Shown in pieces: positions 6,982-25,372 of a stretch of 64,000 bases of DNA (the first letter of the stretch is position 1; each line of letters begins with the position of its first letter). This DNA is from Cyanidioschyzon merolae (Eukaryota), in assembly GCA_000091205.1 (NCBI GenBank), contig AP006501.2; one strand, given 5' to 3'. The position numbers were made by a program, and so were the translations under genes. Below the pieces are notes generated by a model. That model saw nothing but the letters and a program-made list of their open reading frames with translations, made no database searches and was not told where the DNA came from.

Positions 6982-8463
6982 TCAGCACACACGAGATGAT
7001 GGTGCACTGCTTTTGGAAGGGCAAAGAACACAAGCAATGCGCTCGAATGCAACTTGTAGCGTTTGCGTATCCTCAACTGCCGAGAAGCAACATCTATACC
7101 ACCCGGGTTCAGGAGCATGGCAAACACGACCCGGATAGATCAACACTCGCGCTTCTCGAAAGAGTCGCTCAGCAAGTTCCAACTCCGCTTCCCAGGTCGC
7201 CTCGCGAAGAAATCTCTGCAAGCCAATCCATACGAAGAATCCAGCCTGGCTGGGATAGATGCGCACCTGCTCTGCCCCAAGACTGGTTTGAATCGCTTGA
7301 ACAGCCACCTGATACGCTTCCTCTAGTCGTCGTTGGTTTGCGACGAAAAACTTGTGCAACCATTGCTCGTCACTCAGCATTCGGCAAAGCACTGCCTGCG
7401 TATCCCGACTGGGCGACGAAAACAAACACGGTGCTCGAATCGCCTGCAACAGAGCCTGGTTCTCCGTAAAGAGAACCCCACATCGCATGCCACTCATACA
7501 GAGGTCCTTACTAAACGTCCATACGACATGCACATCGTTGCCGAGACCCTGGACGGCCAAAACGTCCGCTACGGAACGAAAACGCCCCGCATGGCTCTGG
7601 AAGACCGAGAGCGCGTACGCCTCGTCGCTCACCAGGTGCATGCCATGGGATCGACACCATTGAATGGAAAGCTCTAGTTCTTCTGTCGATAGAATATTGC
7701 CCGTTGGATTCCCGGGACTGTGCAGGAGCAACACTCGCGGTCGTTGCCCGCTCGCTCTACAGGTCCGGTCCGCAGTTTCAAGCGCATCCCTTGTCAGACG
7801 GTGGTGGTTATGGAGCGCTGTTTGTACAGGTACGGGTATGCACTTTGCACGGCAGCTCAGGTCAAAGTCAAATCCCGGATAATACGGTGCCGGAATCAAC
7901 ACGGCATCACCATCGTCACACAGGGCACTGAATACCAGGTCAAGTACAGCGCTTGCACCAACGGCACACAGGTAGTTATCGGGGTTGGCTGCACTTGCTG
8001 GGCCGCCTTTCGAAGCTGCAAATATATGCTCTCGAAAGAGTTGGCTAAGTGCCTTGCGAAAGCGTAACTCGCCGAACATGTAGTCGTACTGAAGGCACTC
8101 GTTGCGCGGCAATACGTCGCTGCGTTCCCGCTGAAACTGGGCTAAGACGGGTCCCGCACTGAGCGCGTTCTCGGCCACCAGCAGTGAGATATAACCATTA
8201 GGTTTTAATTGTGGATCGTATGCGTCCTGTTTCGCTGTAAAGGACCACTCAATCTGGCGTGGCGGTGCACGACTCGCAAGCGCCCTCCCCCGGTCTGAAA
8301 GCGTCTCTGCTGCGCTTTTCAGCACGCTACTCGTCTCTGGTTGTTGCATGCAGACACGTATACTTCGCTGTTGCTGCTGGGACGTAGCTGAACAGAGCAG
8401 CCGATCCCGACACTGAGCGCGAACGAACAAAGCTTCTCGGTAAACACCAGACTGGAGGAACAT
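6982..8463 (-). CDS. Class I/II PLP-dependent aminotransferase, ACC-synthase-like
   Basis: ATG-initiated 493-aa ORF. The PLP-lysine motif 'TFSKDLCMSGMRCGVL' matches ACC-synthase-type 'SLSKDxGxPGFRxG'. Other family blocks are 'NGYISLLVAENALS' and 'LLHSPGNPTGN'. Confidence 0.8.
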   Translation of the reverse strand: MFLQSGVYREALFVRAQCRDRLLCSATSQQQQRSIRVCMQQPETSSVLKSAAETLSDRGRALASRAPPRQIEWSFTAKQDAYDPQLKPNGYISLLVAENALSAGPVLAQFQRERSDVLPRNECLQYDYMFGELRFRKALSQLFREHIFAASKGGPASAANPDNYLCAVGASAVLDLVFSALCDDGDAVLIPAPYYPGFDFDLSCRAKCIPVPVQTALHNHHRLTRDALETADRTCRASGQRPRVLLLHSPGNPTGNILSTEELELSIQWCRSHGMHLVSDEAYALSVFQSHAGRFRSVADVLAVQGLGNDVHVVWTFSKDLCMSGMRCGVLFTENQALLQAIRAPCLFSSPSRDTQAVLCRMLSDEQWLHKFFVANQRRLEEAYQVAVQAIQTSLGAEQVRIYPSQAGFFVWIGLQRFLREATWEAELELAERLFREARVLIYPGRVCHAPEPGWYRCCFSAVEDTQTLQVAFERIACVLCPSKSSAPSSRVC

Positions 8464-8562
8464 CCAGACTCGGCATCTCGAAGCGGTGGATCACTGCGGC
8501 CGACACTACGGCATTCTCCCGAGACGCTTCCATTGCGGTATCGAGTACGCTGATGAAGCGGG

Positions 8563-9256
8563 GAACTTGGCGACTGAGACAAAGTCTTCAACGTAGAAGC
8601 CTCATGGTGCAAGGATCGGGTGTATAAAGGTACGAGATACTGCGAACTTGGCGACTGAGGCACAGTCTTCAACGTAGAAGCCTCATGGTGCAAGGATCGG
8701 GTGTATAGAGGTACGAGATACTGCGAACTTGGCGACTGAGGCACAGTCTTCAACGTAGAAGCCTCATGGTGCAAGGGTCGGGTGTATAGAGGTACGAGAT
8801 ACTGCGAACTTGGCGACTGAGGCACAGTCTTCAACGAAGAAGCCTCATGGTGCAAGGATCGGGTGTATAAAGGTACGAGATACTGCGAACTTGGCGACTG
8901 AGGCACAGTCTTCAACGAAGAAGCCTCATGGTGCAAGGATCGGGTGTATAAAGGTACGAGATACTGCGAACTTGGTGACTGAGACACAGTCTTCAACGAA
9001 GAAGCCTCATGGTGCAAGGATCGGGTGTATAAAGGTACGAGATACTGCGAACTTGGCGACTGAGACAAAGTCTTCAACGTAGAAGCCTCATGGTGCAAGG
9101 ATCGGGTGTATAGAGGTACGAGATACTGCGAACTTGGCGACTGAGGCACAGTCTTCAACGAAGAAGCCTCATGGTGCAAGGATCGGGTGTATAAAGGTAC
9201 GAGATACTGCGAACTTGGCGACTGAGACAAAGTCTTCAACGTAGAAGCCTCATGGT
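8563..9256. repeat. 81-bp minisatellite, 8 full units plus a 40-bp partial unit
   Basis: Units start at 8569, 8650, 8731, 8812, 8893, 8974, 9055, 9136 and 9217. The consensus is 'GGCGACTGAG(G/A)CA(C/A)AGTCTTCAACG(T/A)AGAAGCCTCATGGTGCAAGG(A/G)TCGGGTGTATA(A/G)AGGTACGAGATACTGCGAACTT'. The array lies between the 5' end of the aminotransferase gene and the 3' end of the permease gene. Confidence 0.95.
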
Positions 9257-9602: not shown

Positions 9603-10430
9603 TCAACTAGCACCAGATGTGTACGTTTCGCGCACAAGCCTCCAGGAGTTATGATCGAAAAACTTGCCGTACGTCAACAAAGCCAGTAAGGATGCAGAAA
9701 GCGTACTACCTGCTGTGATCATATAATACACAACGATTTGATAACGCGCTGCTGTGTCCGTGGAACCGTTACCGACAATCTGCCCCGTCATCATGCCTGG
9801 TAAAGAGACAAGGCCTACCGTCAGCATCGAGTTCACGACCGGAATCAGTGCCGAGCGCAAGGAGGCTCGAAGTGCCGGTGCGATCGCTTGTTTTGGACTG
9901 GCACCTATGCTGAGGAGTTCCTCGATCTCTTTCTCGTGCGAGGATACCTCGGACTGGAGTCGTTCGCCCAACAACGCTACTGTGTTCATGGCGTTCCCGA
10001 GAATCATACCGGAGAGCGGGATAAAGTAACGCGGCATCCAGAAAGGTTTCACTCCGATGACGGTCCAAGTTGTTTGCACGATCACGAAACCTGCACCACT
10101 GAGAAGCGAGACTAGCACGGCGACGAACATACCCGGTATTGGTCGGTGCATGCGCTGTGAAGCTGTCCAGGCAGCAACCAAAGTCATGATGCTTACTGCC
10201 AAGAACACAAGCAATGGTAGGTTTGCAGCGAAAATCCAGCGCAAGACGAGCCCTACGAGCAACAACTGGACTGCGGCACGAAGGGACGCCCAAACCATAT
10301 CCAGTTCGATGCCAATCTCAAACAGCCATATCGCCATAACTGACAGTAGCATGAAACCGTAAGCGACAGCAAGTTGACCAAGACTGACAGGCAGGGCGCC
10401 GGCCGTGTCGGCACTGCTCGTGGACTCCAT
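9603..10430 (-). CDS. fetB: FetB/YbbM (UPF0014; plant ALS3/STAR2-like) ABC-type permease
   Basis: The track start at 10454 is GTG and the first ATG is at 10430. The protein is polytopic, with the family block 'YFIPLSGMILGNAMNTVAL' and overall YbbM-like topology. Confidence 0.75.
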   Translation of the reverse strand: MESTSSADTAGALPVSLGQLAVAYGFMLLSVMAIWLFEIGIELDMVWASLRAAVQLLLVGLVLRWIFAANLPLLVFLAVSIMTLVAAWTASQRMHRPIPGMFVAVLVSLLSGAGFVIVQTTWTVIGVKPFWMPRYFIPLSGMILGNAMNTVALLGERLQSEVSSHEKEIEELLSIGASPKQAIAPALRASLRSALIPVVNSMLTVGLVSLPGMMTGQIVGNGSTDTAARYQIVVYYMITAGSTLSASLLALLTYGKFFDHNSWRLVRETYTSGAS

Positions 10431-10706
10431 GAATGGGCGACGGATGCAAAACACGAACGCTTCCGACCCCAGGTCTGAACAACGAAGTGAATGTCCAGGT
10501 CAGAGCGCGTTGACTGCCGCACGCCGTCGAACAAGGCAAGAATCCTCGACCAGGTACAAGTGCAGTCGTGCAGGCTCTCGTACGGCTTCTCAAGGCCCAG
10601 CAGCAGGAGCGCGCTGAGCTCTGGTGCTGTGCTCGTTCGTGCCGTGCGGCCTGCCTTCTCACCAAGACACCTTCGACTGTGAATGCTCGCTTCCCGATCT
10701 GCGGCT

Positions 10707-12503: not shown

Positions 12504-15500
12504 ATGCCCTCCAGGGGTGCGCGTTCGAAGAAGCCCGCAAAGAAGACCGCCTCAGCTGAGGAGGCAGCACAACGACTGCCAGAGCATCTCGCGGCAGGCA
12601 AGTTCACCTCACTGGCCGACATCACAAGTATCGTGCTGGGTGCTCGCTCGTGGCAGTCCGAGGCAGAGGCCGAGACGAGGCCCCTCACGACTACCGCGTC
12701 TACTGCAGAGCTTCAAAATTGGGATGAACACGCTGCGCTGGTTGCCCAACGACTCTTAAAACGCGATGAAAGTACAAAACTACGAGCGTTGCAGGAGCTC
12801 AGCACCCTCTTGCAGGCACTGGAACAAGCTTCCTCGGAAAGAATCGCAGACCAAGCAGCCTACGGGGCCCAGTACGGCGCTTTTCTCGGAAACTTTGCCA
12901 CTGCATTCGTGAAACTGACACTGGATCCGAGTGTACGCGTTCGAGCAGAAGCCGTCGCGCTGGCGGGGCTTGTCGTTCGTCTTTACGGAAAACGGTCAAT
13001 AGCGCTCCTGCCGGGGATGCTTCCGGCATGGGTTGGGTTGCTGGGCGATCCCTCGGCACAGGTCGCTGAAGCTGCAGCTCGTAGTTTCCAGGACGCGTTT
13101 CCCACTGAGGTGAAACGTCGACGAGCGCTGTTGTTGGTACCGCATGCACTGATCCACCACGCAACCGCGCAGGTTCAGAGCAGTCTAGCGGGAAACGTGC
13201 CAGAGACGTTGCGTCAATCCGCAGACAAGGCCGAAATGCCCCTTCTCCACGCGCTGGTGTGCGTGGCGTCCACCGCGGAGGCTTTGGCAACGACACTAGC
13301 GACAAAGACAACCTTGTCGCCAGCAGACGACTCGGAACTGGTTGCATTTCTGGTCCACTGGCTCCAGCACTGGGTATCGGAGGAAGGCGTGCAGACGCTT
13401 GCGGTACCGCTTTTCCGCCGCTACCGGCAATCGCTCCGCGTCCATGAGGCCTTCTGGCGACTAGCCATTATTTCAGTGGACCTTTTCGGAGAGCTTCGGC
13501 AGACCAGAGACGAGCACCAGGGGCATAGCTTGATCGCTGCATTGGCAAACGCTTGTCCAGACTGGGAAAGCAAGGCGTCGGACGGTTTTTCCTATCTCGT
13601 TTCACGACTCGCTTGGGATGAGCTGCACGCTTCCTGCCAAGAACAGGTCTGGATCCTCCTCCATCGCTATGTTGTGCGGATTGAGCCTTCCAGCAGCAGC
13701 CTTGCACGATCGATCTCTGCAAAGACGCTCACAAGCTGGCTTCTCGGCGAGTCGATAGCAGGGGGCCGGCGTCAGGCCTCTGCAGCCGAACGTATCCAGT
13801 CTGGTCGGGTTTTCCGGGGGCTGCTACCCTTCTTGCAAGCGCTACGAATCAAGTGGCTGACCAGCGACGCTGTGCGTTCCGATCCAGTCGAGAGCGCTTC
13901 CCGTCATCATTGGCTCGAGTCGTTCGAGGGTATGCTGCTCGATGAGCTCACCACTGCCTTGCTCTGGCGAGCGCCTAAAACAAAGTTTCCTCCAGCGCTT
14001 GTGGGGAGCGCTTACCTGGACTGGTGGCAAGCAGCGCTGGTCGCTTTCCTGGAGAGTGCGCTCTGGGTCCAGCAGCTATCCTCGAGACGAGAGCGCAGCG
14101 ATGATAGGACTGCTCTGCGCGCTCGATGCCGCGCTGCACTACAGCGGTACCTTCTTGCAGCGGAGGCGTTTCAGCGTGCACCTGAAGCGTCGCAATCCGT
14201 GGTGCAATTCGGTGGTAGACCAGCCGATGCATCATTGCTTCATGAACGCTTTTTCGATGTGCTTTTCTATGCGAGCGTGGACGCTTGTCGAAGCGACTTG
14301 GATGCAACGCGCTCCAACTGGCAAATCGTTGGTGAGGAGCTCGCCGCGGGGCTCGTCGTCATCGTCGTCATCGAACGAGCACCTGCCTGGTATGCGAAGG
14401 CGGTGGTCGCTGCTTGCGAACGTGCCGTGCAGGGAACCTCGTTCGCGACGCTCGAGTCAGACCAGCAGCCCCGGTGGTCACTTCTAGGCCTCGATCCTGG
14501 CGTCATTCGTACCTGGAGTGTAGAAATTATGGGAGGTGCGTTCTGCTGGGCACTGAATCGTTTCCGTCGACGAAAGATTGGCAACGGAAACGCACAACAT
14601 GACGATAATCACCAGCAGGTACATGGTACTCCAGCGGAAGCAGAGGTTGCAACCACGCTGCTCCTGTTGGCATGGAGTCAGCGCGCCCCGGCTTCGATGC
14701 TGGAACGTGCTTTGCAGTATCCAGATCCGATTCAGGGCCGCCATCGACTCAACGACTTTTTCCACGACGCTGTGTCGCTGCTGGAGCATCCATCAGCGGA
14801 AAACGAGCATGACGATGACGATGACGACAACGAGGAGGAGGCGGTGGCGGTGGCAGCGCTCCCTGCTGCTTACAGTCACCAGCTCGTAGCGGTGCTGGGT
14901 GCACTGGCTGCATGCAGTCACTCCTCTGAGGCGCTGAGCGGTCCATCGAGCGTCTTGAACGCGCGTTTAGAGGAGTGTCCTGGCGCGGGTCGCTGGCTCA
15001 TCGAACTTGCTCAAGCAGCACGTATCCGAGCAGCTTCAATAGAGCAAGGTGTTCCAGCTGGTCTCTGGACAGCGACGGTGTTTCCCCGTCACCTGGCTGA
15101 CCAAGTGGAGCACCTGCAGTGCTACTGCGACCAACTGGACCCCGCCCGCTACTCCTATTACCGCCGTTCGGAGACAGACGCTTGGCCTTCCGTTGGGCTC
15201 CTGCTGGAATACGCCGCCTGGCCCGAGGCCTGGCTCTGGTCAACGTCCACTGACTGGTCTACACTGAGGAGCAGCATGGATGCCAGCGTGTGTCGGGCGC
15301 TGCGTCTCGGACTCTGGGACTGGCCCCAACTGGCCTCCTTTCAGCAGGGTGTTCATTCAGCAGCTGCTCCATGGACCGCAGAAACACGAGCTTGGCTGTA
15401 CGTGAGAGCGCTCCTGGCATTAGAGCAGCACCAGAGCCAAGAAGCAAGCGACGGGCATGTGTTTGCGGACGTCCGACCGTCGGCAGCGCTGGAGCGTGAA

Positions 15501-18500
15501 ACCCTGGAAAGAGTCGTGCTCGACGCACTCGCGTGGCTCCTTGAGGATATGGAACGCGTTCTGCTCGCAGAGTCGTGTGAAACGCAAGCTCCGGACATGC
15601 TCGAGGCTGTTCAACGCTTCCAGCGCGTGCTGCTAGAGCTCGCCGCCACCTCGAAACGCCCCTGGCAAGCTCTCCTGTACGACATATTGTACAAGTGCTG
15701 GGTATCGGATGCAGAGGACTCGAAGGCAATAGCAGCACAGCCTGGAGAGCGCGTGATAGAACCAGCATGGCGACCATTGCAAAGACTAGAGGAGCAACAA
15801 CGACAACAACGCTGGCGTTGTTCGCTGCTCGAGTCGCTGACACCCTCGCTGGACGATGCAGCAAGTCCGCTTGATGCTACGTTGTGGCACCTCTACCTGC
15901 AGTTTCCATGGACGCGTTCCTGGGCAACAGCACGATTTATCGGCTGGCTGCAGCGAACGGATGCTGCGACTGCTGCGTCCGCACTCGACGTGGCGGCAGC
16001 GGTACTTGCGCGCCTCCTGGACCCCGAAGCGAGCACTGCAGCCTGCTGCGACACGATCGTAACCGAGTTGGCAAAAGCCCCGCTGTACGCACCAGCGACA
16101 CCGACAGCGTTTCAGGTGCCGCTCGAGCAAAGCGCTGAGCGTCAACCGACGATGCTCATGAGACTGCTGATATGGTCGTCACTGGTACGAGAGCGTTTCT
16201 GGATACGTCTCCAGACGGATGCTGCGTATTTTGGACGAAGCGTCACCGCGGCCTCTTTCACACGATGCACGATGGCTGCTCTGGAAACCGGTCCGGTTAC
16301 CGGCCTGCAGGCATCTGGAGCCGTGGGAGAGTTTGCGTTGGAGCTCCTTCGGTATGCGGCAGCGAGTCTGGCGCAAACGCTGCCCGTATGGGTCCAGAGC
16401 GTTCTGAATGACACCTCAGCTGAGCGAATGCGCAGCGCTACCGGGCTGCAGCACGAGCCGTCTGTCCAAGTGGCCCCACAGGATGTACCGAAAACACTGT
16501 GTGCTTCTATGGAAATTCTCGGGCATGCGGCTGCGATTCCCGCCTCCTACGAACATCGTGCGGATTTGTTGACGTACCTGCGTTCCGCACTGGAACTGCT
16601 CATTGAGGTGCCGTTCACGAACCTGATCACAAGCCTCGAGCGAGCGCCACAGCAAACGAGTGAGGAGTTTCATCGAGGCTCCTCATTCGTTGGCAAACAT
16701 GCAACGCCGGACGCCAACACGACAAGGCCAGCAGCATCGGCAACGAGCGTGCGTCGCGTTTCGGACGCTCCATCGACACCGTCGTCATCGTCGAGCGCAG
16801 CGGAGGACTCGAATCGCCAGGTACTCGCGGTCCTGTTTGAACGGCTCGTGCGTCCGAGTCTGGACGTTTTCGCTACCGACCTGGGCGAAGAACACTGGAC
16901 CTGGATCGGCGAGACTGCTACGCAGGCGCTGGTGACCTCGCTGGGCTGGCCAGTGTACGCGGCAGCGCTTCGGTGTCTGTACGCATGGCATGTGCGGCTC
17001 GTAGAGCGTGCCTCTTCGACCCTGTTATCGGAACAGATGGTCAGCAGTATTGGACAGGCCCTCTGGATGACTTGTTATCGATTGGCAGAGGCGTATCGTG
17101 ACTCGCTCGTCACCGAGGCGCCATGTTCACCGGTTGCGGAGCTGAACCTACCCGTTCAAGATGCGCTGGGCTATTTGATTTGCGTTTTCAGACCTGAACT
17201 TGAGCGACTGGCGCTTCGCAGCGAGGATTCCGCACCCCAGATGATGACCGCGTTACCGTGCTGGCGCGAAGCTCGTGACCGCTGGGTAACGACGCGTTTT
17301 GGTGTCAAGTGTGAGTCGTTGCTTTCATCGATGCTGGGCCGCTTCTGGTGTCTCACCTGGCTTCCGTATCTCGTTGCAAGCAAAAGCACCGCTGTCCGCA
17401 GTGCCGTCATGCAGTTGCTGGGCACCCTGTGGGATGCGCTGGAAGCCTGGCTCGCGACGTCGACACTGGAGGGTGCACAGGCGTCCCTGGGTACCGGGCA
17501 CGCAGGTACAGGTGCCTCTCCTGCGGATACACGTCCAGGCTCGATTCGTTTCGAGTCCGATCAGCGTGGAGCGGCCACAGCCCTGGGCAGACGACCTGCA
17601 GAGCCCGAGCCGATGCCCTGTAGCAGCACCAGCGCTACATACGCTACCGAGACAACGCCACTGGAATACTCTGCGGATCGACGGGGCACCCAGCTGGACG
17701 GCAGCGTCGAGCATCACGACCCGTTACGCACGGAGGCATCGGAGCTCTCCGTCGCCGTCAGCGACTTGGGCATTGCAGAGAATACCGTGCATTTGGAGGC
17801 ACTCAAGGGATTGGCAACGCTCCACGATGCCCTGATTCAGAGCTGCAGTGAGGCGCTGTTTGCCCTGACGGCGAGGTTTCCGTCGCTGGACCCGACACCA
17901 GAGGCCGCGTCATGGGAACCTCTGCAGACCTATTTTTGCGCTTGGCTGGTGCTGCTTCGGCTCCAGGTCACGGGCTCCTATCCAGAAGCGTCGCTGGTAA
18001 CACCGTTGGGGTCGCGGTTGCCGAACACGTTGCGAGAAGGTGCGCTTTGGACGCTTCTAGACGGACTCGGGCGTTGCTGGATCCGAGCGGCAGCTACGAT
18101 AACGACGCGAACACCCGAAAGCAGTCACTCCACGAGCGATGCAGAGGCTCAATGCTTCCGAGAGCAACTGGAAATGCTTCTGGCTGGTCTCACCGAGCAA
18201 CTGGTGCTCGCTACCTCGGATCCGCAGTGGCTGGCGAGGGAGATCTTCTGGGAGCCAACAGACTGGCGACCAGCGGCTCTCGGAGCCCGCCTCCTCTTCC
18301 TGACGCTACTCGTGCAACCGCTTCTTGCACAACGCTGGTTTACCGATCATGTTGCGGATCGCTCGCTTCTTCAGCCGCTGGAGCTGTTGAGCCGCACGCT
18401 GCTCACTGGACCGTTGATTGCCCGCGAACTCGAGGCTATTCGGCAGTATGCCGCGCATGTGCACCAGACCCAGCACCGGGAGAACGGCGAAACCGTTCCC

Positions 18501-19133
18501 AATGCATCCCCTTCCCATACGGGTGTGTTATCCGTTCAGGGTAGTCTTGCAGCACGAGAGATTCTGGTTCGGTACCACTTTGAAGAGGTCCAATTACCCG
18601 TGTGTCTCCGACTGGCCGATACGCATCCGTGGCGAGCGCCGGAGCTTGTGCTTGCGCCCGCTGAACGCTCCGTAGTCTCGTTGGCGGGCATCGAACGTGA
18701 AACACGCGCTCGATCAGAGCTCGAAGCTCGCTACCGAAGACTCTTTCTCCATATGACCAGAATTTTACAACACGGAGTGGATCGGCACTCTGCCGACGCC
18801 GGTACCCTACTGCTACAACTGGGCGCATCGGCAACGTCCTCGTCGACATCGACGACATCGACGCTTGGGACGGCGTCCTGTGTGCCTCGTCAGTACTTTG
18901 CACCGAGTGCCCTCGCCAGTGCGGTGGTGTACTGGCATCAGCGTTTGGTTTCCCTATTGCGTGACGCACCCGAGTGTCCGATCTGTTATCAGGTGCTGCA
19001 TTCACGAACAGGTCAGGTTTCGCGTGTGCGCTGTCCGACCTGTCGGTATCGATTCCATGCAGCTTGTCTGTATCGGTGGTTCAGTAGTGCTGCGCACGGT
19101 GCCACGTGTCCGTTGTGTCGGTCACCGTTCTAA
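12504..19133 (+). CDS. LTN1: Listerin (LTN1/Rkr1) ribosome-quality-control E3 ubiquitin ligase
   Basis: 2209-aa uninterrupted ATG ORF with HEAT-like repeats throughout. The extreme C-terminal RING at 18972-19130 reads 'ECPICYQVLHSRTGQVSRVRCPTCRYRFHAACLYRWFSSAAHGATCPLCRSPF', which is typical of listerin. Confidence 0.85.
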   Translation: MPSRGARSKKPAKKTASAEEAAQRLPEHLAAGKFTSLADITSIVLGARSWQSEAEAETRPLTTTASTAELQNWDEHAALVAQRLLKRDESTKLRALQELSTLLQALEQASSERIADQAAYGAQYGAFLGNFATAFVKLTLDPSVRVRAEAVALAGLVVRLYGKRSIALLPGMLPAWVGLLGDPSAQVAEAAARSFQDAFPTEVKRRRALLLVPHALIHHATAQVQSSLAGNVPETLRQSADKAEMPLLHALVCVASTAEALATTLATKTTLSPADDSELVAFLVHWLQHWVSEEGVQTLAVPLFRRYRQSLRVHEAFWRLAIISVDLFGELRQTRDEHQGHSLIAALANACPDWESKASDGFSYLVSRLAWDELHASCQEQVWILLHRYVVRIEPSSSSLARSISAKTLTSWLLGESIAGGRRQASAAERIQSGRVFRGLLPFLQALRIKWLTSDAVRSDPVESASRHHWLESFEGMLLDELTTALLWRAPKTKFPPALVGSAYLDWWQAALVAFLESALWVQQLSSRRERSDDRTALRARCRAALQRYLLAAEAFQRAPEASQSVVQFGGRPADASLLHERFFDVLFYASVDACRSDLDATRSNWQIVGEELAAGLVVIVVIERAPAWYAKAVVAACERAVQGTSFATLESDQQPRWSLLGLDPGVIRTWSVEIMGGAFCWALNRFRRRKIGNGNAQHDDNHQQVHGTPAEAEVATTLLLLAWSQRAPASMLERALQYPDPIQGRHRLNDFFHDAVSLLEHPSAENEHDDDDDDNEEEAVAVAALPAAYSHQLVAVLGALAACSHSSEALSGPSSVLNARLEECPGAGRWLIELAQAARIRAASIEQGVPAGLWTATVFPRHLADQVEHLQCYCDQLDPARYSYYRRSETDAWPSVGLLLEYAAWPEAWLWSTSTDWSTLRSSMDASVCRALRLGLWDWPQLASFQQGVHSAAAPWTAETRAWLYVRALLALEQHQSQEASDGHVFADVRPSAALERETLERVVLDALAWLLEDMERVLLAESCETQAPDMLEAVQRFQRVLLELAATSKRPWQALLYDILYKCWVSDAEDSKAIAAQPGERVIEPAWRPLQRLEEQQRQQRWRCSLLESLTPSLDDAASPLDATLWHLYLQFPWTRSWATARFIGWLQRTDAATAASALDVAAAVLARLLDPEASTAACCDTIVTELAKAPLYAPATPTAFQVPLEQSAERQPTMLMRLLIWSSLVRERFWIRLQTDAAYFGRSVTAASFTRCTMAALETGPVTGLQASGAVGEFALELLRYAAASLAQTLPVWVQSVLNDTSAERMRSATGLQHEPSVQVAPQDVPKTLCASMEILGHAAAIPASYEHRADLLTYLRSALELLIEVPFTNLITSLERAPQQTSEEFHRGSSFVGKHATPDANTTRPAASATSVRRVSDAPSTPSSSSSAAEDSNRQVLAVLFERLVRPSLDVFATDLGEEHWTWIGETATQALVTSLGWPVYAAALRCLYAWHVRLVERASSTLLSEQMVSSIGQALWMTCYRLAEAYRDSLVTEAPCSPVAELNLPVQDALGYLICVFRPELERLALRSEDSAPQMMTALPCWREARDRWVTTRFGVKCESLLSSMLGRFWCLTWLPYLVASKSTAVRSAVMQLLGTLWDALEAWLATSTLEGAQASLGTGHAGTGASPADTRPGSIRFESDQRGAATALGRRPAEPEPMPCSSTSATYATETTPLEYSADRRGTQLDGSVEHHDPLRTEASELSVAVSDLGIAENTVHLEALKGLATLHDALIQSCSEALFALTARFPSLDPTPEAASWEPLQTYFCAWLVLLRLQVTGSYPEASLVTPLGSRLPNTLREGALWTLLDGLGRCWIRAAATITTRTPESSHSTSDAEAQCFREQLEMLLAGLTEQLVLATSDPQWLAREIFWEPTDWRPAALGARLLFLTLLVQPLLAQRWFTDHVADRSLLQPLELLSRTLLTGPLIARELEAIRQYAAHVHQTQHRENGETVPNASPSHTGVLSVQGSLAAREILVRYHFEEVQLPVCLRLADTHPWRAPELVLAPAERSVVSLAGIERETRARSELEARYRRLFLHMTRILQHGVDRHSADAGTLLLQLGASATSSSTSTTSTLGTASCVPRQYFAPSALASAVVYWHQRLVSLLRDAPECPICYQVLHSRTGQVSRVRCPTCRYRFHAACLYRWFSSAAHGATCPLCRSPF

Positions 19134-19238: not shown

Positions 19239-21491
19239 TCATCGCATTCGCGAGGCACTGGTGGAGAAAAGTTGACGCGCCAGGTCCGCCGAGAACGATG
19301 ACGACGATGGTGGTGGTGGTGGTGGTAGCGGCGATGGCGATGGCGACGATGATGATGATGATGATGATCGACGCAGTTCGTGTGCATCCAGCAACTCGGT
19401 GTCGGTGAGCAGCACCGAGGAGGCCGCATCCGCTACCGCCTCCATTGTGGCATGATCACTTGGACTGGTGCTCTCCGCGATGCCGGCAACGCGACCCGAT
19501 AATGATGGCGATAAAGACGACCGGATGTGATGATGGTTATTGGTGCTGTTGTTGCTATTGGTGCTGCTCATCTCGGATGCCATGTGCCGTCGATGGGTTG
19601 TCATAGCGTGTTCCGATGGTGCACGCCTTGCATCCCCGCTCACAGCGTCGGCAAGCTGGTCGTTGAACTGCATCGCTAGCGTCGACGCCTGCGAGCGATG
19701 ATTCATGGTTGACTGTTGTTGCAGTTGCTGTTGTTGCTGTAGTTGGTGCTGTCGTCGTCGCTTGCGCGCACAGAGACGGCAGTGATTGCCCCAATCACAG
19801 GTGCCTTGTCGTTGCATCATACGGCTGTGACGTTTGCGACAGTTGCCGCATACCTGTGTCGCGCAGCAAGCTTGACAGGTCCGATGTAGTTCTAAAGCAT
19901 CCGCGCTAGCGCGACTTCGCAGCGACTGGGAAGCTGAGCGTCGATCGAGTGCCCCCGACGAGGGCGAGTCAACGACAACCGCCTCGGGATCAGCCTCGCT
20001 CGTGGATCGATCCGCGTGCGGTTGGCTCCGACGCGTTCTCCTCGCAGTCGTTAGAAGCAAACCGTGATCGCTGAGGCCTTGCTCTGTGAGTACTCCGGCG
20101 GCCGCCTGGAATGCGGCATTTCTGGCACCGGCATCCAGGTTGGCTTGTCGACTAGCAGCGTCGCCTCCGAGCGCTGGTGTCTCCCACGGCGACGGCAGCG
20201 AGCTCCGCTGGCGAGCGCGTTGGCGCTGTCGACGAGTGCAGAGGCGACAGGCGTCGCCCCATTGGCATCGTCCATCAGGGGCATGTTTCATCATGCGATG
20301 ATGCCGTTGTCGACACGCCGGGCACACCGGTTTGTTCAGTCCGGGATCACTGCACTTGGGGCAGCGGATATGTCGCTCCAGGGGTGTCGTGCCTGTCGAC
20401 GGACCCAGCTGCCCTGCGCCGTCGTGCGCCACATACGGCGGAATATCATCCTGATCCCAGTTCAAGGCTTGGCTCTGTAGCGCCAGGGTGCTATGCTCGC
20501 CATCCTGGCCGGTTGGTCGTGCGCCCGACAAATAGCCTCGAAAGCTGGTACGGTCGCGTTCGCTGAGCAGGAGCATACCGCCACCAGTGGCGCCAGTACC
20601 CGTTCCAGTACCAGTTTCAGTACCCGTTCCAGTACCAGTTCCGATTCCGGTGCCGCGCTCGGACTCTGGATCCCTGAGCGGAGCAAAGAGCTTTGCTTGA
20701 GCGAGTTCATCATCTGTTTGCAGATGCACATTCTCGGGGATGTCTTCGGTGCCGGATTCTATCGGATTCGGCAGCCGCTCAGCCGGTATCAATACATCTC
20801 GGGCGGGGCGAAGCGCCGGTAGCACTCCTATTTTCACCGCCAAGTCCTGGGCGAAAGCCCGCGACGCGGATATCGGCGGCAGCGTCGGTGGCTCCATGGG
20901 CGACACCGAGGCCGCAGATACAACGCCGCACTCGGCACTGCCAGTGCCTTCGAGCCAGCCCTCAAAAATCTGCCGCTCTGGACTCTGCTTGTTTGGTAAA
21001 TCGGAGAGCATCGCATTCGCTGCCGTCACTGGGTTTCCATCGGCGCGAGTTGCGGACCCTGCACTGAAAGTGCGCCCAGCATCACGACGTACACCCAATG
21101 CAGTGCTTGCCGCTGTTGCAGTCGTTGAGGTCGGCGTATCCGGATCGTAGCGGGCGAAGTCGACGACGGCAAACAGGTAGTGGCTGGTGTCGGTGCTACG
21201 ACCCAGTGGACTAGGCGGTGGGCGCGGCTCGCTCTCCGCGAGTCGCTGGCGCGTCCGGCGGCCGATTCCTTCGCCCAGAGAGGAGTCTCCGGGTGACCCA
21301 TCCCTTGTTCCAAACGTCTCTGCAACGTGATCTGGAAAGTTATCGCTATTTACTGCGGAGTCGTCCCCGCCAAGACCCCAGTAGGCGTCCGACACCGCCA
21401 GATTACCTTCGTCGTCCACGTGCTCCGTCTGTGCACGCGAAGAAGCCGCAGCACTTCTCTTCGTCTGCCGCTCTCCTCGTCGCGGTGCCAT
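19239..21491 (-). CDS. Low-complexity protein with two copies of a Cys-rich (7 Cys + 1 His) module
   Basis: The track start at 21572 is GTG and the first ATG is at 21491. The modules lie at 20238-20363 and 19770-19877. A Gly-Thr repeat lies at 20586-20654. The C-terminal part has poly-Q, poly-S and poly-P tracts. No family was recognised. Confidence 0.55.
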   Translation of the reverse strand: MAPRRGERQTKRSAAASSRAQTEHVDDEGNLAVSDAYWGLGGDDSAVNSDNFPDHVAETFGTRDGSPGDSSLGEGIGRRTRQRLAESEPRPPPSPLGRSTDTSHYLFAVVDFARYDPDTPTSTTATAASTALGVRRDAGRTFSAGSATRADGNPVTAANAMLSDLPNKQSPERQIFEGWLEGTGSAECGVVSAASVSPMEPPTLPPISASRAFAQDLAVKIGVLPALRPARDVLIPAERLPNPIESGTEDIPENVHLQTDDELAQAKLFAPLRDPESERGTGIGTGTGTGTETGTGTGTGATGGGMLLLSERDRTSFRGYLSGARPTGQDGEHSTLALQSQALNWDQDDIPPYVAHDGAGQLGPSTGTTPLERHIRCPKCSDPGLNKPVCPACRQRHHRMMKHAPDGRCQWGDACRLCTRRQRQRARQRSSLPSPWETPALGGDAASRQANLDAGARNAAFQAAAGVLTEQGLSDHGLLLTTARRTRRSQPHADRSTSEADPEAVVVDSPSSGALDRRSASQSLRSRASADALELHRTCQACCATQVCGNCRKRHSRMMQRQGTCDWGNHCRLCARKRRRQHQLQQQQQLQQQSTMNHRSQASTLAMQFNDQLADAVSGDARRAPSEHAMTTHRRHMASEMSSTNSNNSTNNHHHIRSSLSPSLSGRVAGIAESTSPSDHATMEAVADAASSVLLTDTELLDAHELRRSSSSSSSSPSPSPLPPPPPPSSSSFSADLARQLFSTSASRMR

Positions 21492-21801
21492 GCCACCCAA
21501 ACCAGTCCAGAAACGCTTACTTTCCGTTCCGACTGTGCTGACTGAGGCGTGCGCTGACGGGCTCGTGAGCACGAGCCCTCGCCCTGCGCGAGCGTGCTTC
21601 TACGGTGGCAGCAACGCGCCTCTTTCCGGGTGTTTCGTGACCTTCCAGTGAGCTAGTCTGCAGGTGCTGACTATTGACCACACTGGACGCCTTGTCCAGC
21701 TGCTCTGGCACCGGTGTTTCTCGTAAGCGGCCAGAAGATATCACCGGCAGCGGGAGCGGGCCTCCGCTGCTGGGCGCCTCCTCTGGCGACGTTGGCTGGC
21801 G

Positions 21802-21816
21802 CCCCCCCCCCCCCCC
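21802..21816. repeat. Homopolymer C15 (G15 on the minus strand)
   Basis: Read directly from 'ggcg ccccccccccccccc ggtg'. It lies inside the 21517..21963 minus-strand ORF, where it encodes GGGGG. Confidence 0.95.
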
Positions 21817-22744
21817 GGTGACGACTGGAGCGATCATTCGCTGCCGTCGCTGCTGCAGCTGATTTTTTACCTCTGACGAGGGGTTTCTATTGTATTTGGA
21901 ATCGCGTATTGCGGGATGGATATTACGATTTATGTAAGTGTTCATCAGGATGCTGAACTTCAAGTTCCATGACAGATACTTCCTTGCGGATGTACTGGTC
22001 GTTTCGGACGTTCTATCATGAGTCTAGTGCCTGCAGTACGCATACGCGTTAGCGCCGAGACCGCTGGAGCGGATATTTCATAGAGCCCGAACGGCTTTGC
22101 CATACGACTGGGGCGGGGGGTGTTGGCCCAAGGCATGATTCACTGGACATCGGGGTCGGAGCGTAGAATCATTCTGGGAGCGTGCAAGCTGTGCAGACGC
22201 ACTGCCTGTGGCAGCAGCGCGAAGCGATATACAAGGAGTACACTGCGACCAGGGCGATGCCCAGACGCTGGCTAACTGCTCGAAATCCCAGAATAAGCGG
22301 CGTTTCTGACGAGTTGCCCAGGTCTCAATAAAGCTCCTGCAACTGGGGGCCTGAAGCACAAGCCTGGCAGGCTCGTGCGACTCGCGGGACCTTACGTCCA
22401 GAAGGTAAACTCTCGACGATACGGAAACCTTTGCCCCCTTTTATCGTTTGTCGTAGAGGGGCAAAGAAAATGTTATCTCGCTACTAGTTTGTAACTAGTC
22501 TCTGTCCTTTTGGGTATATCATGCGCTCGATACGCGCACCTCCATATCTGGCAGTCACAAGACCTGACGTGTATCGCGCCGATGAAGGGAAACGCGATCC
22601 TGATCATGAGCGTGTAGCTCCAACGTACAGGACGCATTTGCGTTGAGGTCATGCGAAAGTATAGTATTTCATCCCAGATGAGTTTCGACCCTCAATGGAG
22701 TGTATTCAAGTGATTTTTCGCGGTTTATAGTAGTAGCGTTCAAA

Positions 22745-23138
22745 GAGCATTCTTTTCCAAAAACAAAAAATCCAAGGGACAGGTATCGACCTGGATGTTG
22801 GGAATCCTTAAGGGCCATCATCGTCGAATTCGACGAAGAATAACCGAAGAAGAAATCCTCTTTTCGTCGACTATCGAGCGAACATGAGCGAACGATGCGG
22901 ACGAAGAAGACCGAGAATGGATGTAGGCGAGAAAGTGTGTGCCCGACGAGACGATGACGAGACTGTAGTGGCACAGAGGGCGCGGGTTCTGGGAATCCTT
23001 GGAAAATTGCGTTCAGCCAGAGGCAATAAACGTATGGTGCTCGTGAACCGAGACTTTAACGCCGTCATCAATATCAGACGATGGGCGGTGCTGAAGACGA
23101 GACACGAGGAGCTTACGCGATCTAGCTTTGTGGAGTAG
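22745..23138 (+). pseudogene. TnpB/Fanzor-like nuclease relic R1 (C-terminal fragment)
   Basis: In one frame it reads 'LFVDYRANMSERCG' (22860-22901) and then 'LVNRDFNAVINIRRW' (NRD... at 23046-23081). This matches the TnpB pattern of TSKxC plus Zn ribbon followed by RuvC-III 'RDxNAAxNIRR'. An in-frame stop lies upstream at 22809-22811. It is collinear with R6 at a constant offset of 19,692. Confidence 0.5.
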
Positions 23139-24125
23139 CCTCTCATGGGCGATGTGTACAGGGAGAAGCTGAAACCGATAGCAGGTCGCCTGTGTAGATA
23201 GGCTGGGAGGCGTCTGCACGTGGGTGTCAGTTTACGATCTCGAGGCGACGCCTCCAGTGGTGCGGAAAGGCCGTTCTGTCTGCGCTAATGCGAGACGCGT
23301 GGTGGTTACCTGGGCCCTGCTTTTCCCTTATAGGCTATTACGTGAGCCCTTGGGCACCTTCAGCACAGAAACGTTTCCAGTCTGCAACGTGGCGGGATAA
23401 GCGAGTCGAGCTCGGAGCGCTCCGTGTACAATCACGCTGTCTCCTTTCGCAAGTTACGATGCGTACCTGTTTCGCGGCTGGATTTTTGGCACCAAAAGCG
23501 CTGTAGGTACCGGGTTCAGGTACAGTTCCATCTCGCCAGATGCTGTTGGTGTCGAAGGATCGGCTTCAGGAGGAGGTAAGCGTCCGGCATTGCGTACCAA
23601 GAGGTCTGCGACGAGGCGTTCATCGCGCAGTTCGTCGCATCAGCAGGCGGGCACTGCTTGTAATCGACTGCCTGAGCGCTTCATTGAGACGATTCATAAA
23701 AGCCATCGTCGCCTTCAGATATCACTCTGAGAACTGTTTGGACGCTGCAGAACGATTCTCGGGATGCGCGAAACATGCCCAGAGTCGGCACCTGGCATGG
23801 GGTAGGGTCCTGGTCTGTTGTGGTGTAGGATCCTTAAATCTAACCAGGTTTCTGGCGATGCGCATCCGCTTCTGATGACCACGAAAGAGGCCTCGTTCGC
23901 TTCACTAGCGCATGTGTGTGTTCGGCAAGTCCCAGTCAAAATGCCCAACAGGTATAGAGGCTTGCTCATTCCAAAGGAACAGCGGTTATCGAGTCTACAG
24001 TGGGCGCTCGCGCCACCGCGGGCTCATTCTCACACGCTCACCGCAGAGGTTCGTTTCCTAACGAGCAACTCGCGCGTCTGCAGGCGCATTCTCCAACGAG
24101 ATGCCGACCCTGAAAACGTATATTT

Positions 24126-24282
24126 CGCTGTATTCCAAGTCTGGAATCATCCGAGGCACTAGATGCGAAGGCAGCCGGTTTCGGGAAGTGCTCGTCCCAG
24201 TCTGATACCGGAAATCCCGCTGTATTCCAGGTCTGGAATCATCCGAGGCACTAGATGCGAAGGCATCCGGTTTCGGGAAGTG
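24126..24282. repeat. Two direct copies of a 65-bp unit, 92 bp apart
   Basis: 'CGCTGTATTCCA(A/G)GTCTGGAATCATCCGAGGCACTAGATGCGAAGGCA(G/T)CCGGTTTCGGGAAGTG' occurs at 24126-24190 and 24218-24282, upstream of the YggS-like gene. Confidence 0.85.
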
Positions 24283-24562
24283 GTAGTGCCTCCATCCGAT
24301 CGTATATCTCGTTGTACCCCAGGTCTGTAATCATCCAGATCACGACATACATAGGCATTATGTGTCGGGTACTCGACATTCCGCCTTGCTCGTGCTTCGC
24401 GCTGGCATACGATACAAATGAAGCACAGCCGCAGTTGCGCAGTCGCGGTTGCCAGGCCCGCGTTGCGTACGGCTGCGATGCCCGCCGGAGGACACAGCCT
24501 TGTGCTACGCTGGGCTCGTGCGGCGTTGCGCCCGTATACTGTTGGGCTCCGTTGGAGACGGT

Positions 24563-25372
24563 ATGTCGGTTAGGTGGAAGCGGCTTCAAGCACAGCTCGG
24601 TTTCCTGTCTAGTGGACTGCGCATGCAGCATACAATTTCGGAAAGCAAAGCACAAGGTGAACGAGCGCAAACTATAGCAGAACGACTGTGCAAGGTACGG
24701 GAGCGAATTCAAGTCGCTGCGCTTGCCGCAAAACGCGACCCTGCACGGGTTCGCCTAGTTGCTGTGAGCAAAACGCACGCTGCCGGTACCGTGCGGGAGG
24801 CGTATGACGCAGGTCAACGCCACTTTGGGGAGAACTACGTCCAGGAGCTGGTTGAGAAAGCGGAACAGCTACCGACAGACATAAACTGGCACTTTATCGG
24901 ACACCTGCAGAGCAATAAAGTGAGGACGCTGTTGAGTGTCCCGAACCTCTGGTGCGTTGAGACTGTCGATCGACCCAAGCTTGCGAATACACTGAACCGC
25001 CTCATGGACGAGTTGCGTCCCGACGGAGGTCCGATACCTGTGATGGTGCAGGTGAATGTCAGCGGGGAAGCGAGCAAGGCCGGGATAGAACCCGCTGCCG
25101 CTCCCGAACTCGTCGAGCACATCCTGCAGGCTTGCCCGCGGCTGAAGCTCCTCGGTTTAATGACGATAGGCTCGCCGGACCCGAGTCCAGAGCCTGTGGC
25201 GTTCCAAAGGCTCTCGCACTTACGAGACCAAATACAGGACCGGTTTAGGTTTCAAGAGCCGCTCGAGCTCAGCATGGGTATGAGTGATGACTTTGAGGCG
25301 GCGGTACGCATGGGTAGCACCAATGTACGCATCGGATCCACTATATTCGGGCCGCGTGTCTATCCGCAATGA
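24563..25372 (+). CDS. PLPBP: YggS/PROSC-family pyridoxal-phosphate homeostasis protein
   Basis: The track start at 24449 is TTG. In-frame ATGs lie at 24563 and 24623. The family blocks are 'LVAVSKTHAAGTVREAYDAGQRHFGENYVQEL' (PLP lysine) and 'WHFIGHLQSNKV', followed by 'LSMGMSDDFEAAVRMGSTNVRIGSTIFG'. Confidence 0.85.
   Translation: MSVRWKRLQAQLGFLSSGLRMQHTISESKAQGERAQTIAERLCKVRERIQVAALAAKRDPARVRLVAVSKTHAAGTVREAYDAGQRHFGENYVQELVEKAEQLPTDINWHFIGHLQSNKVRTLLSVPNLWCVETVDRPKLANTLNRLMDELRPDGGPIPVMVQVNVSGEASKAGIEPAAAPELVEHILQACPRLKLLGLMTIGSPDPSPEPVAFQRLSHLRDQIQDRFRFQEPLELSMGMSDDFEAAVRMGSTNVRIGSTIFGPRVYPQ

What the first reader, a model, noticed from the sequence alone, without database searches (positions are those of the whole stretch)
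19770..20363. Duplicated 7-Cys/1-His module of unrecognised type in a low-complexity protein
Two copies about 160 aa apart share a strict pattern. It is C-x2-C-x(5-8)-C-x2-C-R-x-R-H-x-R-M-M-x(4-7)-C-x-W-G-x2-C-R-L-C-x-R-(R/K)-x-R-Q. The first copy reads 'CPKCSDPGLNKPVCPACRQRHHRMMKHAPDGRCQWGDACRLCTRRQRQ'. The second reads 'CQACCATQVCGNCRKRHSRMMQRQGTCDWGNHCRLCARKRRRQ'. Eight potential ligands would fit a two-zinc cross-brace or treble clef, followed by a basic tail. I could not match the module to RING, PHD, CXXC, MYND, ZZ or HIT spacings. The rest of the protein is low complexity, with a (GT)n repeat and poly-Q, poly-S and poly-P tracts.
Basis: seen in the sequence. Interest (0 to 1): 0.55.

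Follow-up and report, generated by a model that had tools for sequence, protein, structure and literature searches.

The report
Orphan double zinc-module protein, red alga
A hypothetical protein of the hot-spring red alga Cyanidioschyzon merolae carries two copies of a small, strongly conserved cysteine/histidine module that matches no known zinc-finger family or solved fold and occurs only in three related algal lineages; it is probably a lineage-specific nucleic-acid-binding regulator, but its function is untested.

Summary
The gene is on the minus strand (CDS 19239-21491). Its product is 100% identical to C. merolae 10D CMS403C, a 750-aa "hypothetical protein". It holds two homologous modules (BLASTP E 3e-10).

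Orthologues exist in an uncultured relative (MAG GCA_041825655.1, syntenic next to Listerin) and in Cyanidium caldarium. Both have both modules. An exhaustive phmmer search of 1.84 billion representative proteins found nothing else.

Across the six modules, 7 Cys and 2 His are invariant, not 1 His. So are R27, R29, R32, M33, W44, G45 and R49. The pattern is H-x2-C-x2-C-x5/9-C-x2-C-x3-H-x9-11-C-x5-C-x2-C.

The modules are islands of purifying selection (pN 0.095 against 0.43 for the rest; pS saturated). They are also the only confidently folded parts in AlphaFold2, which predicts three helices per module.

No known family fits:
- Pfam and PDB sequence searches gave nothing significant.
- hhalign against SBP and DM sequences gave nothing.

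Best reading: a Cyanidiales-restricted, undescribed zinc-binding module with basic helices, in a disordered, Q/S/P-rich protein. That suggests a nuclear nucleic-acid-binding regulator. Zinc binding and function are inferred, not shown.

The parts
19239..21491 (-). Single-exon CDS (750 aa plus stop) of C. merolae 10D CMS403C, annotated 'hypothetical protein'
   Evidence: ORF list. Translation from the ATG at 21491 is 750/750 identical to P0018 = BAM82969.1 / XP_005539005.1. The ORF is intact in two metagenome strains.
20238..20384 (-). Module 1 core, aa P370-C418: PLERHIRCPKCSDPGLNKPVCPACRQRHHRMMKHAPDGRCQWGDACRLC. Spacing H-x2-C-x2-C-x9-C-x2-C-x3-H-x11-C-x5-C-x2-C.
   Evidence: Regex; six-module alignment A2; spacing; 88% identical to the MAG module 1 with saturated synonymous change; AF2 pLDDT 80-87.
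20205..20237 (-). Basic tail of module 1 (TRRQRQRARQR), predicted as a continuation of helix 3
   Evidence: helix 416-431. Basic in all three module-1 orthologues.
19770..19898 (-). Module 2 core, aa A532-C574: ALELHRTCQACCATQVCGNCRKRHSRMMQRQGTCDWGNHCRLC. Spacing H-x2-C-x2-C-x5-C-x2-C-x3-H-x9-C-x5-C-x2-C.
   Evidence: 81% identical to the MAG module 2. AF2 pLDDT 77-93.
19749..19769 (-). Basic tail of module 2 (ARKRRRQ)
   Evidence: Kept in the MAG (ARKRRKQ) but not in Cyanidium (QGERGRR).
19713..19745 (-). Gln-rich tract (QLQQQQQLQQQ) directly after module 2
   Evidence: Not conserved in the orthologues.
20577..20654 (-). Gly-Thr repeat (GTGIGTGTGTGTETGTGTGTGATGGG). Its length differs between strains.
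   Evidence: TRF period 6/12/24 at 20593-20642. Shorter allele in metagenome cluster members.
19296..19367 (-). Ser/Pro tract (S8-PSPSPL-P6-S4) near the C-terminus. Its length differs between strains.

Best explanation
CMS403C is a lineage-specific regulator found in Cyanidioschyzon, an uncultured relative and Cyanidium.

Its only folded parts are two ancient tandem copies of an undescribed module of about 50 aa. Each module is predicted as three short helices joined by loops that carry nine invariant ligand-type residues. I infer that each module is held together by zinc, most simply two ions. One possible arrangement is an outer site C10/C13 + C48/C51 and an inner site C23/C26/H30/C42, with H7 spare or alternative. 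This grouping is a guess.

The invariant arginines on helix 2 (C-R-x-R-H-x-R-M) and the basic helix 3 (C-R-L-C-x-R-R...) would form a strongly cationic surface (net +5 to +12 per module) that contacts nucleic acid. The long disordered, acidic-motif, Q-rich and S/P-rich remainder would act as effector or recruitment regions. The most likely role is therefore a nuclear DNA-binding transcription factor with two DNA-reading heads.

Shown: the duplication, the conservation, the purifying selection, the restricted distribution, the lack of any match to known families or folds, and expression of the Cyanidium orthologue.

Inferred: metal binding, stoichiometry, nuclear location, nucleic-acid binding, and DNA rather than RNA.
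For: - The duplication is real: BLASTP E 3e-10.
- Three orthologues each have both modules. The module-1 and module-2 indel signatures (x9/x11 against x5/x9-10) are kept in all three genera, so the duplication predates their split.
- 16 invariant columns include 7 Cys, 2 His, 4 Arg, Met, Trp and Gly.
- In the modules pN is 0.095 and pS 0.77. In the rest of the gene pN is 0.43 and pS 0.69.
- Population variants in more than 12 metagenome alleles touch the modules at one non-ligand site only, P/S.
- AF2 on the module alignment gives pLDDT 79.9, pTM 0.60 and helices 3-8, 24-36 and 49-63. In the full-length model only aa ~370-431 and ~530-617 exceed pLDDT 70.
- Net charge is +5 to +12 per module.
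- The Cyanidium orthologue has no signal peptide and no TM segment. It is expressed at about 116-127 TPM in both diploid and haploid cells (PMC13353863, Suppl. Dataset 9).
- Synteny Listerin / this gene / YggS-like is kept in the MAG, and by gene order in Cyanidium.
Against: - There is no experimental datum on metal content, localisation or binding.
- iTAK did not class the Cyanidium orthologue as a TF or TR. That is expected for an unknown domain, but it gives no support.
- The basic tail after module 2 is lost in Cyanidium.
- Nine invariant ligands do not fit two tetrahedral sites neatly.
- The AF2 model rests on six sequences. Its coordinates could not be inspected, so the ligand grouping is a guess.
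- The weak CCCH-like similarity (E 0.02) would point to RNA rather than DNA.
Confidence: 0.45

Rival explanations
1. It is an RNA-binding post-transcriptional regulator. The C-x-W-G-x2-C-R-L-C knuckle would act like the C-x5-C-x3-H core of CCCH fingers, with the invariant Trp stacking on bases and the Arg-rich helices gripping the RNA backbone.
For: The only Pfam model that repeatedly touches the module is zf-CCCH_4 (E 0.017-0.023, 15 bits), aligned on the C-x-W-G-x2-C stretch. There is an invariant aromatic-Gly pair between two Cys. The modules are highly basic.
Against: The score is below the gathering cut-off (24.6). Only 1 of 6 modules hits when scanned separately. The ligand spacing differs: C-x5-C-x2-C with an upstream His at 9-11, against C-x7-8-C-x5-C-x3-H. 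The module is larger, with nine ligands. There is no fold match to solved CCCH fingers.
Confidence: 0.2
2. It is a protein-protein interaction or ubiquitin-ligase-like scaffold. The N-terminal half of the module (H-x2-C-x2-C-x5-9-C-P-x-C-R) would be a RING-derived half-site that docks partner proteins. The disordered regions would carry short linear motifs.
For: The profile's best PDB sequence hit is the second half of the TRIM21 RING (E 0.095), aligned H..C..C......C..CR. There are weak hits to Prok-RING_4 and zf-C3HC4_3. Conserved short acidic/hydrophobic motifs lie outside the modules.
Confidence: 0.12
3. The conserved Cys/His set is not a structural zinc site. It could instead be a sensor or ligand site for another metal or for redox state (Cu, Cd, As, Hg, an Fe-S cluster or reversible disulfides). 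This would fit life in acidic, metal-rich hot springs and could couple metal status to regulation.
For: An odd number of invariant ligands (nine) does not fit two Zn(Cys/His)4 sites. The family is confined to thermoacidophilic Cyanidiales.
Against: There is no similarity to known Fe-S, copper-fist or metallothionein motifs in Pfam. The CxxC pairs sit at helix N-termini, as is usual for structural zinc sites. Expression is constitutive in the one data set seen.
Confidence: 0.1
4. The module is a very divergent member of an existing zinc-finger family that sequence and fold searches here were too insensitive to detect.
Against: Every test run was negative. The ligand pattern fits none of RING, PHD, CCCH, DM, SBP, MYND, HIT, ZZ or CXXC by spacing.
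Confidence: 0.13

Closest known systems
RING finger (C3HC4 / RING-HC, e.g. TRIM21)
   Same: The first half of the module reads H-x2-C-x2-C-x5-9-(V)C-P-x-C-R. This is the pattern of RING ligands 4-8. It gives the best, but non-significant, PDB sequence hit (E 0.095).
   Different: RING ligands 1-3 are absent. Four further invariant ligands follow instead (H, C, C-x2-C). The predicted fold is three helices rather than a beta-beta-alpha cross-brace. Pfam RING models score 10-14 bits against a cut-off of 27. No structural match was found.
CCCH zinc finger (Pfam zf-CCCH_4, tristetraprolin type)
   Same: It has a C-x-aromatic-G-x2-C knuckle with C-x5-C spacing. It is basic. It occurs as two copies in one protein.
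   Different: The last ligand is C at +3 rather than H at +4. The upstream ligand is a His 9-11 residues away rather than a Cys 7-8 away. It is embedded in a larger nine-ligand module. The score is 15 bits against a cut-off of 24.6.
DM domain (Doublesex/MAB-3)
   Same: The design is analogous: a small Cys/His module with two presumed metal sites, followed directly by a basic alpha-helix. In DM proteins that helix binds DNA (my own knowledge of the family).
   Different: The ligand set and spacing differ. DM is C-x2-C-x2-H-x8-H-x3-C-x4-C-x-C-x2-C. hhalign probability is 2% against a DSX sequence written from memory. There is no Pfam DM hit. DM is a metazoan family.
SBP domain (SQUAMOSA-promoter-binding, incl. 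algal copper sensor CRR1)
   Same: The inner four ligands of module 1 (C-x2-C-x3-H-x11-C) have the same spacing as the second SBP zinc site, and a basic stretch follows (my own knowledge of SBP; spacing).
   Different: Module 2 has x9/x10 instead of x11. The first SBP site is absent. hhalign probability is 0.3%. There is no Pfam or PDB hit. SBP is a green-lineage family.

Membership tests
RING finger | Eight ligands spaced C-x2-C-x9-39-C-x1-3-H-x2-3-C-x2-C-x4-48-C-x2-C | tested here: not met
   Only the H-x2-C-x2-C-xn-C-x2-C half is present. No C-x2-C...C lies upstream in any of the six modules.
RING finger | Score above the Pfam gathering threshold for a RING model | tested here: not met
   zf-C3HC4_3 scores 10.5-10.7 bits and Prok-RING_4 13.9 bits, against cut-offs of 27.
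RING finger | Cross-brace beta-beta-alpha fold superposable on solved RINGs | tested here: not met
CCCH zinc finger | C-x7-8-C-x5-C-x3-H ligand pattern and a Pfam score above cut-off | tested here: not met
   The pattern is H-x9-11-C-x5-C-x2-C. zf-CCCH_4 scores 15 bits against 24.6, in one module of six.
DM domain | Intertwined CCHC + HCCC sites with DM spacing; profile similarity | tested here: not met
   The spacing differs. hhalign probability is 2%. No Pfam DM hit at E <= 10.
SBP domain | Two sequential sites, C-x4-C-x16-C-x2-H/C and C-x2-C-x3-H-x11-C; profile similarity | tested here: not met
   Only the second-site spacing is matched, and only in module 1. hhalign probability is 0.3%. 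No Pfam or PDB hit.
   None appears in hmmscan of the six modules at E <= 10 or of the whole protein at E <= 1. HMMER filters can drop very weak matches.
Zinc-binding structural module (generic) | Stoichiometric Zn bound by the conserved Cys/His; folding depends on the metal | not testable with these tools
   Only inferred, from 7 Cys + 2 His being invariant, CxxC pairs at helix starts and the intracellular context.
Sequence-specific transcription factor (generic) | Nuclear localisation and specific DNA binding | not testable with these tools
   The basic helices, NLS-like tails and disordered Q/S/P-rich regions are only suggestive. iTAK gives no TF call for the orthologue.

The most novel reading that the evidence does not exclude
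The module founds a new DNA-binding domain class that arose in the common ancestor of Cyanidium and Cyanidioschyzon. It would have a zinc topology not seen in any solved structure. Nine invariant ligands would allow, for example, a Zn3(Cys7His2) cluster with bridging thiolates, or two sites plus a regulatory ligand. It would define a red-algal-extremophile-specific transcription factor in one of the smallest eukaryotic regulatory repertoires.
Probability: 0.3. Interest if true: 0.6.

Novelty: new variant of a known kind. Interest (0 to 1): 0.42.

Why it matters
C. merolae is a minimal, genetically tractable model eukaryote with about 4,800 genes, and many of them are still annotated 'hypothetical'. 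This work turns one orphan into a defined object:
- two copies of a conserved, probably metal-binding, probably nucleic-acid-binding domain;
- no detectable relative outside three thermoacidophilic red-algal lineages;
- no match to a solved fold.

If the domain binds DNA, it would add a lineage-specific transcription-factor class that standard classifiers such as iTAK and Pfam miss. If its nine-ligand site is unusual, it would be a new small zinc fold. Both ideas can be tested directly by gene targeting in C. merolae and by expressing peptides of about 60 aa. It does not bear on a long-standing open question, so its interest is moderate.

Tried and rejected
- The search for homologous proteins with the two-module segment and with the six-module alignment returned nothing. 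The exact cluster is in that collection. I treat these as false negatives of the tool's word index, not as evidence.
- The look-up of encoding contigs with the GTG-start and ATG-start products found nothing, although the ATG product equals the NCBI protein.
- The metagenome scan with the two-module alignment gave only the same species at 99.2-99.5% identity. It added no diversity.
- A bacterial/archaeal genome scan found no relative, so nothing suggests a prokaryotic origin.
- P0008, the fourth phmmer hit, is a bacterial repeat protein that matches only the linker. I rejected it as spurious.
- The SBP and DM leads from memory were tested by hhalign and rejected.
BFVD gave nothing.
- Plus-strand ORFs that overlap the region (66-138 aa) were rejected as coding. 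Substitutions against the orthologue are concentrated at minus-frame synonymous positions.
- No Rfam family or tRNA lies in the window.
- Literature: no paper text mentions CMS403C or its accessions. The supplements of two C. merolae expression papers and one transcription-factor survey held nothing.
Full report
**What is there**

The finding lies inside a minus-strand ORF, 19239-21572. Translated from the ATG at 21491 it gives 750 aa. These are 750/750 identical to CYME_CMS403C of Cyanidioschyzon merolae 10D (BAM82969.1 / XP_005539005.1 / UniProt M1VC22), annotated 'hypothetical protein'. The window is therefore C. merolae nuclear DNA. By the CM+letter gene-naming convention it is chromosome 19 (my own knowledge).

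The window has the features of that genome:
- about 57% GC and long uninterrupted ORFs;
- housekeeping genes including an M48 peptidase, ETF-alpha, an aminotransferase, an ABC ATPase, SurE, UbiA, a DEAD/SPB4 helicase, CstF77/Suf and condensin Cnd3.

The convergent neighbour at 12504-19133 (+) is Listerin, with the Ltn1 N-terminal domain and a C-terminal RING.

**Check of the observation**

A six-frame regex scan finds the composite Cys pattern and 'C.WG..C..C' exactly twice in 64 kb, at 20238-20363 and 19770-19877, in the same minus frame. The two copies align at 44% identity with BLASTP E 3e-10.

**Relatives**

The word-indexed protein search returned nothing. This is a tool false negative, because the exact cluster is in that collection.

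The exhaustive phmmer search of aa 391-610 against 1.84 billion representative proteins returned four hits with E <= 0.001:
- the query's own cluster, P0005;
- P0006, 670 aa, 59% identity over the segment;
- P0007, 489 aa, 38% identity, E 1.8e-22;
- a bacterial repeat protein that matches only the linker, rejected as spurious.

P0007 is Cyanidium caldarium KAK4535794.1, annotated 'hypothetical protein'.

P0006 comes from an uncultured relative: MAG GCA_041825655.1, also assembled from run SRR17356570, a Los Azufres fumarole metagenome (PMC9583776 found). There it lies convergent to the Listerin orthologue, which is 42% identical. The local gene order is ABC ATPase, Listerin, this gene, then a YggS-like gene, the same as in the window.

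In C. caldarium the gene order g1946 = CMS402C, g1947 = CMS403C, g1948 = CMS406C shows the same synteny (PMC13353863, Suppl. Dataset 9).

A scan of one genome for each of 185,579 bacterial and archaeal species found no relative. A JGI metagenome scan found only the same species at 99.2-99.5% identity.

At phmmer sensitivity the family is therefore confined to Cyanidioschyzon, one relative and Cyanidium. Nothing was detected in Galdieria or any other organism. A single diverged module scoring below about 45 bits would have been missed.

**Anatomy of the module**

All three orthologues have both modules. In the six-module alignment A2 there are 16 invariant columns, numbered as in module 1:
- potential ligands: H7, C10, C13, C23, C26, H30, C42, C48, C51;
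- others: R27, R29, R32, M33, W44, G45, R49.

That makes seven Cys plus two His.

The spacing is H-x2-C-x2-C-x9-C-x2-C-x3-H-x11-C-x5-C-x2-C in every module 1. In every module 2 the x9 becomes x5 and the x11 becomes x9 or x10. The duplication therefore predates the split of the three genera, and both copies have been kept.

Net charge is +5 to +12 per module of about 60 aa.

**Selection**

I compared the window gene with the MAG gene using the Nei-Gojobori method.

| Region | Codons | pN | pS |
|---|---|---|---|
| Modules | 92 | 0.095 | 0.77 (saturated) |
| Rest of the gene (aligned) | 576 | 0.43 | 0.69 |

Sliding-window identity peaks at 0.83-0.90 over the modules and is 0.1-0.5 elsewhere.

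More than a dozen metagenome alleles differ from 10D by scattered substitutions and by the length of the Gly-Thr and Ser/Pro tracts. Within the modules they differ only at one non-ligand loop site, P/S.

**Structure prediction**

AlphaFold2 on A2 gives mean pLDDT 79.9 and pTM 0.60, with three helices at residues 3-8, 24-36 and 49-63.
- H7 ends helix 1.
- C10/C13 lie in a loop.
- C23/C26/H30 sit at the start of helix 2.
- C42 lies in the next loop.
- C48/C51 sit at the start of helix 3, which continues through the basic tail.

In the full-length model (three-sequence alignment) only aa ~370-431 and ~530-617 exceed pLDDT 70. All the rest is below 50. The protein is two small folded beads on a disordered chain. 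I could not read the model coordinates, so the ligand grouping is not determined.

**Comparison with known families**

- Pfam: nothing reaches a gathering threshold. The best hits are zf-CCCH_4 (E 0.017-0.023, 15 bits against 24.6, on the C-x-W-G-x2-C stretch), Prok-RING_4 (13.9 bits against 27) and zf-C3HC4_3 (10.5 bits against 27).
- PDB sequences with the six-module profile: the best hit is E 0.095, to the second half of the TRIM21 RING (H..C..C......C.CRQR).
- Two resemblances recalled from memory were tested by hhalign and failed. These were the second SBP zinc site (C-x2-C-x3-H-x11-C followed by a basic tail), at 0.3% probability, and the DM domain (zinc module followed by a basic recognition helix), at 2%.
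- No paper text in the searchable library mentions the gene or its accessions.
- iTAK, as run by the authors of PMC13353863, does not class the Cyanidium orthologue as a transcription factor, transcriptional regulator or kinase. SignalP and Phobius give no signal peptide or TM segment. It is expressed at about 116-127 TPM in both diploid and haploid cells.

**Interpretation**

Shown:
- a real, anciently duplicated, strongly constrained module;
- restriction to a small clade of thermoacidophilic red algae;
- no match to any curated family or solved fold;
- a position as the only ordered part of an otherwise disordered, expressed, intracellular protein.

Inferred:
- The invariant Cys/His bind zinc. 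The CxxC pairs sit at helix N-termini, the conserved Cys count is odd, and the protein is cytosolic or nuclear.
- The Arg-rich helix 2 and the basic helix 3 contact nucleic acid.
- The disordered regions act as effector regions. They contain conserved acidic/hydrophobic motifs such as 'HTDDEL..AK(L/I)F' (shared with the MAG only), plus Q-rich and S/P-rich tracts.

I favour a nuclear DNA-binding transcription factor (about 0.45). The rivals are:
- an RNA-binding CCCH-like regulator (about 0.2);
- a RING-half-like protein-interaction scaffold (about 0.12);
- a non-zinc metal or redox sensor (about 0.1);
- a very divergent member of a known family that was missed here (about 0.13).

The nine invariant ligands are unexplained. 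They fit two Zn sites plus one spare residue. In principle they also fit a three-zinc cluster with bridging thiolates.

**Verdict**

The ligand count is corrected to 7 Cys + 2 His, and the organism and gene are now identified.

This is a new family within the broad class of small Cys/His metal modules. It is not a new kind of system. Its function is untested. Interest is moderate (0.42).

Noticed in passing
window 8563-9256: An 81-bp tandem repeat, 8.6 copies with 96% matches, lies between the aminotransferase gene (6982-8463, -) and the UPF0014 gene (9603-10454, -). It is also present in metagenome contigs of the same species. A 306-aa ORF (8319-9239, -) runs through it and is probably an artefact of the repeat.
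   Followed up: partly
window 22884-23138 (+), in the ORF-poor gap 21600-24400: An 84-aa ORF ends '...KRMVLVNRDFNAVINIRRW...'. From memory this resembles the RuvC-III 'DRDxNAAxNI' motif of TnpB/Fanzor nucleases. It has no Pfam hit at E <= 1. It could be a decayed transposon-nuclease remnant or chance.
   Followed up: partly
window ~24126-24336: Direct repeats of about 92 bp at about 85% identity lie just upstream of the YggS-like gene (24449-25372, +). They are seen as secondary BLAST hits and as two short ORFs that begin MRRQPVSGS / MRRHPVSGS.
   Followed up: no
window 20577-20654 and 19296-19367 (within the CDS): The Gly-Thr repeat and the Ser/Pro tract vary in length among environmental alleles of the same species (738-774 aa in the cluster members shown, with differing start calls). 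The zinc modules stay fixed.
   Followed up: yes
window 12504-19133 (+): The Listerin (Ltn1/RNF160) orthologue is 2209 aa in a single exon. Its stop codon lies only about 105 bp from the stop of the convergent CMS403C gene. It is 42% identical to the MAG orthologue. The next-best hits in the search were plant Listerins at 26% identity over 12-13% of the query.
   Followed up: partly
tools: the search for homologous proteins and the look-up of encoding contigs returned nothing for sequences whose exact cluster or identical NCBI protein is in the collection. Negative results from these two tools on this Cys-rich, low-complexity protein should not be trusted.
   Followed up: yes
L005 (GCA_041825655.1 contig JBBELT010001258.1) and L006 (SRR17356570): An uncultured relative of C. 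merolae from a Mexican fumarole metagenome keeps local synteny: UPF0014, ABC ATPase, Listerin, the CMS403C orthologue, a YggS-like gene and, further on, SurE. Protein identity is only about 42-43%.
   Followed up: partly
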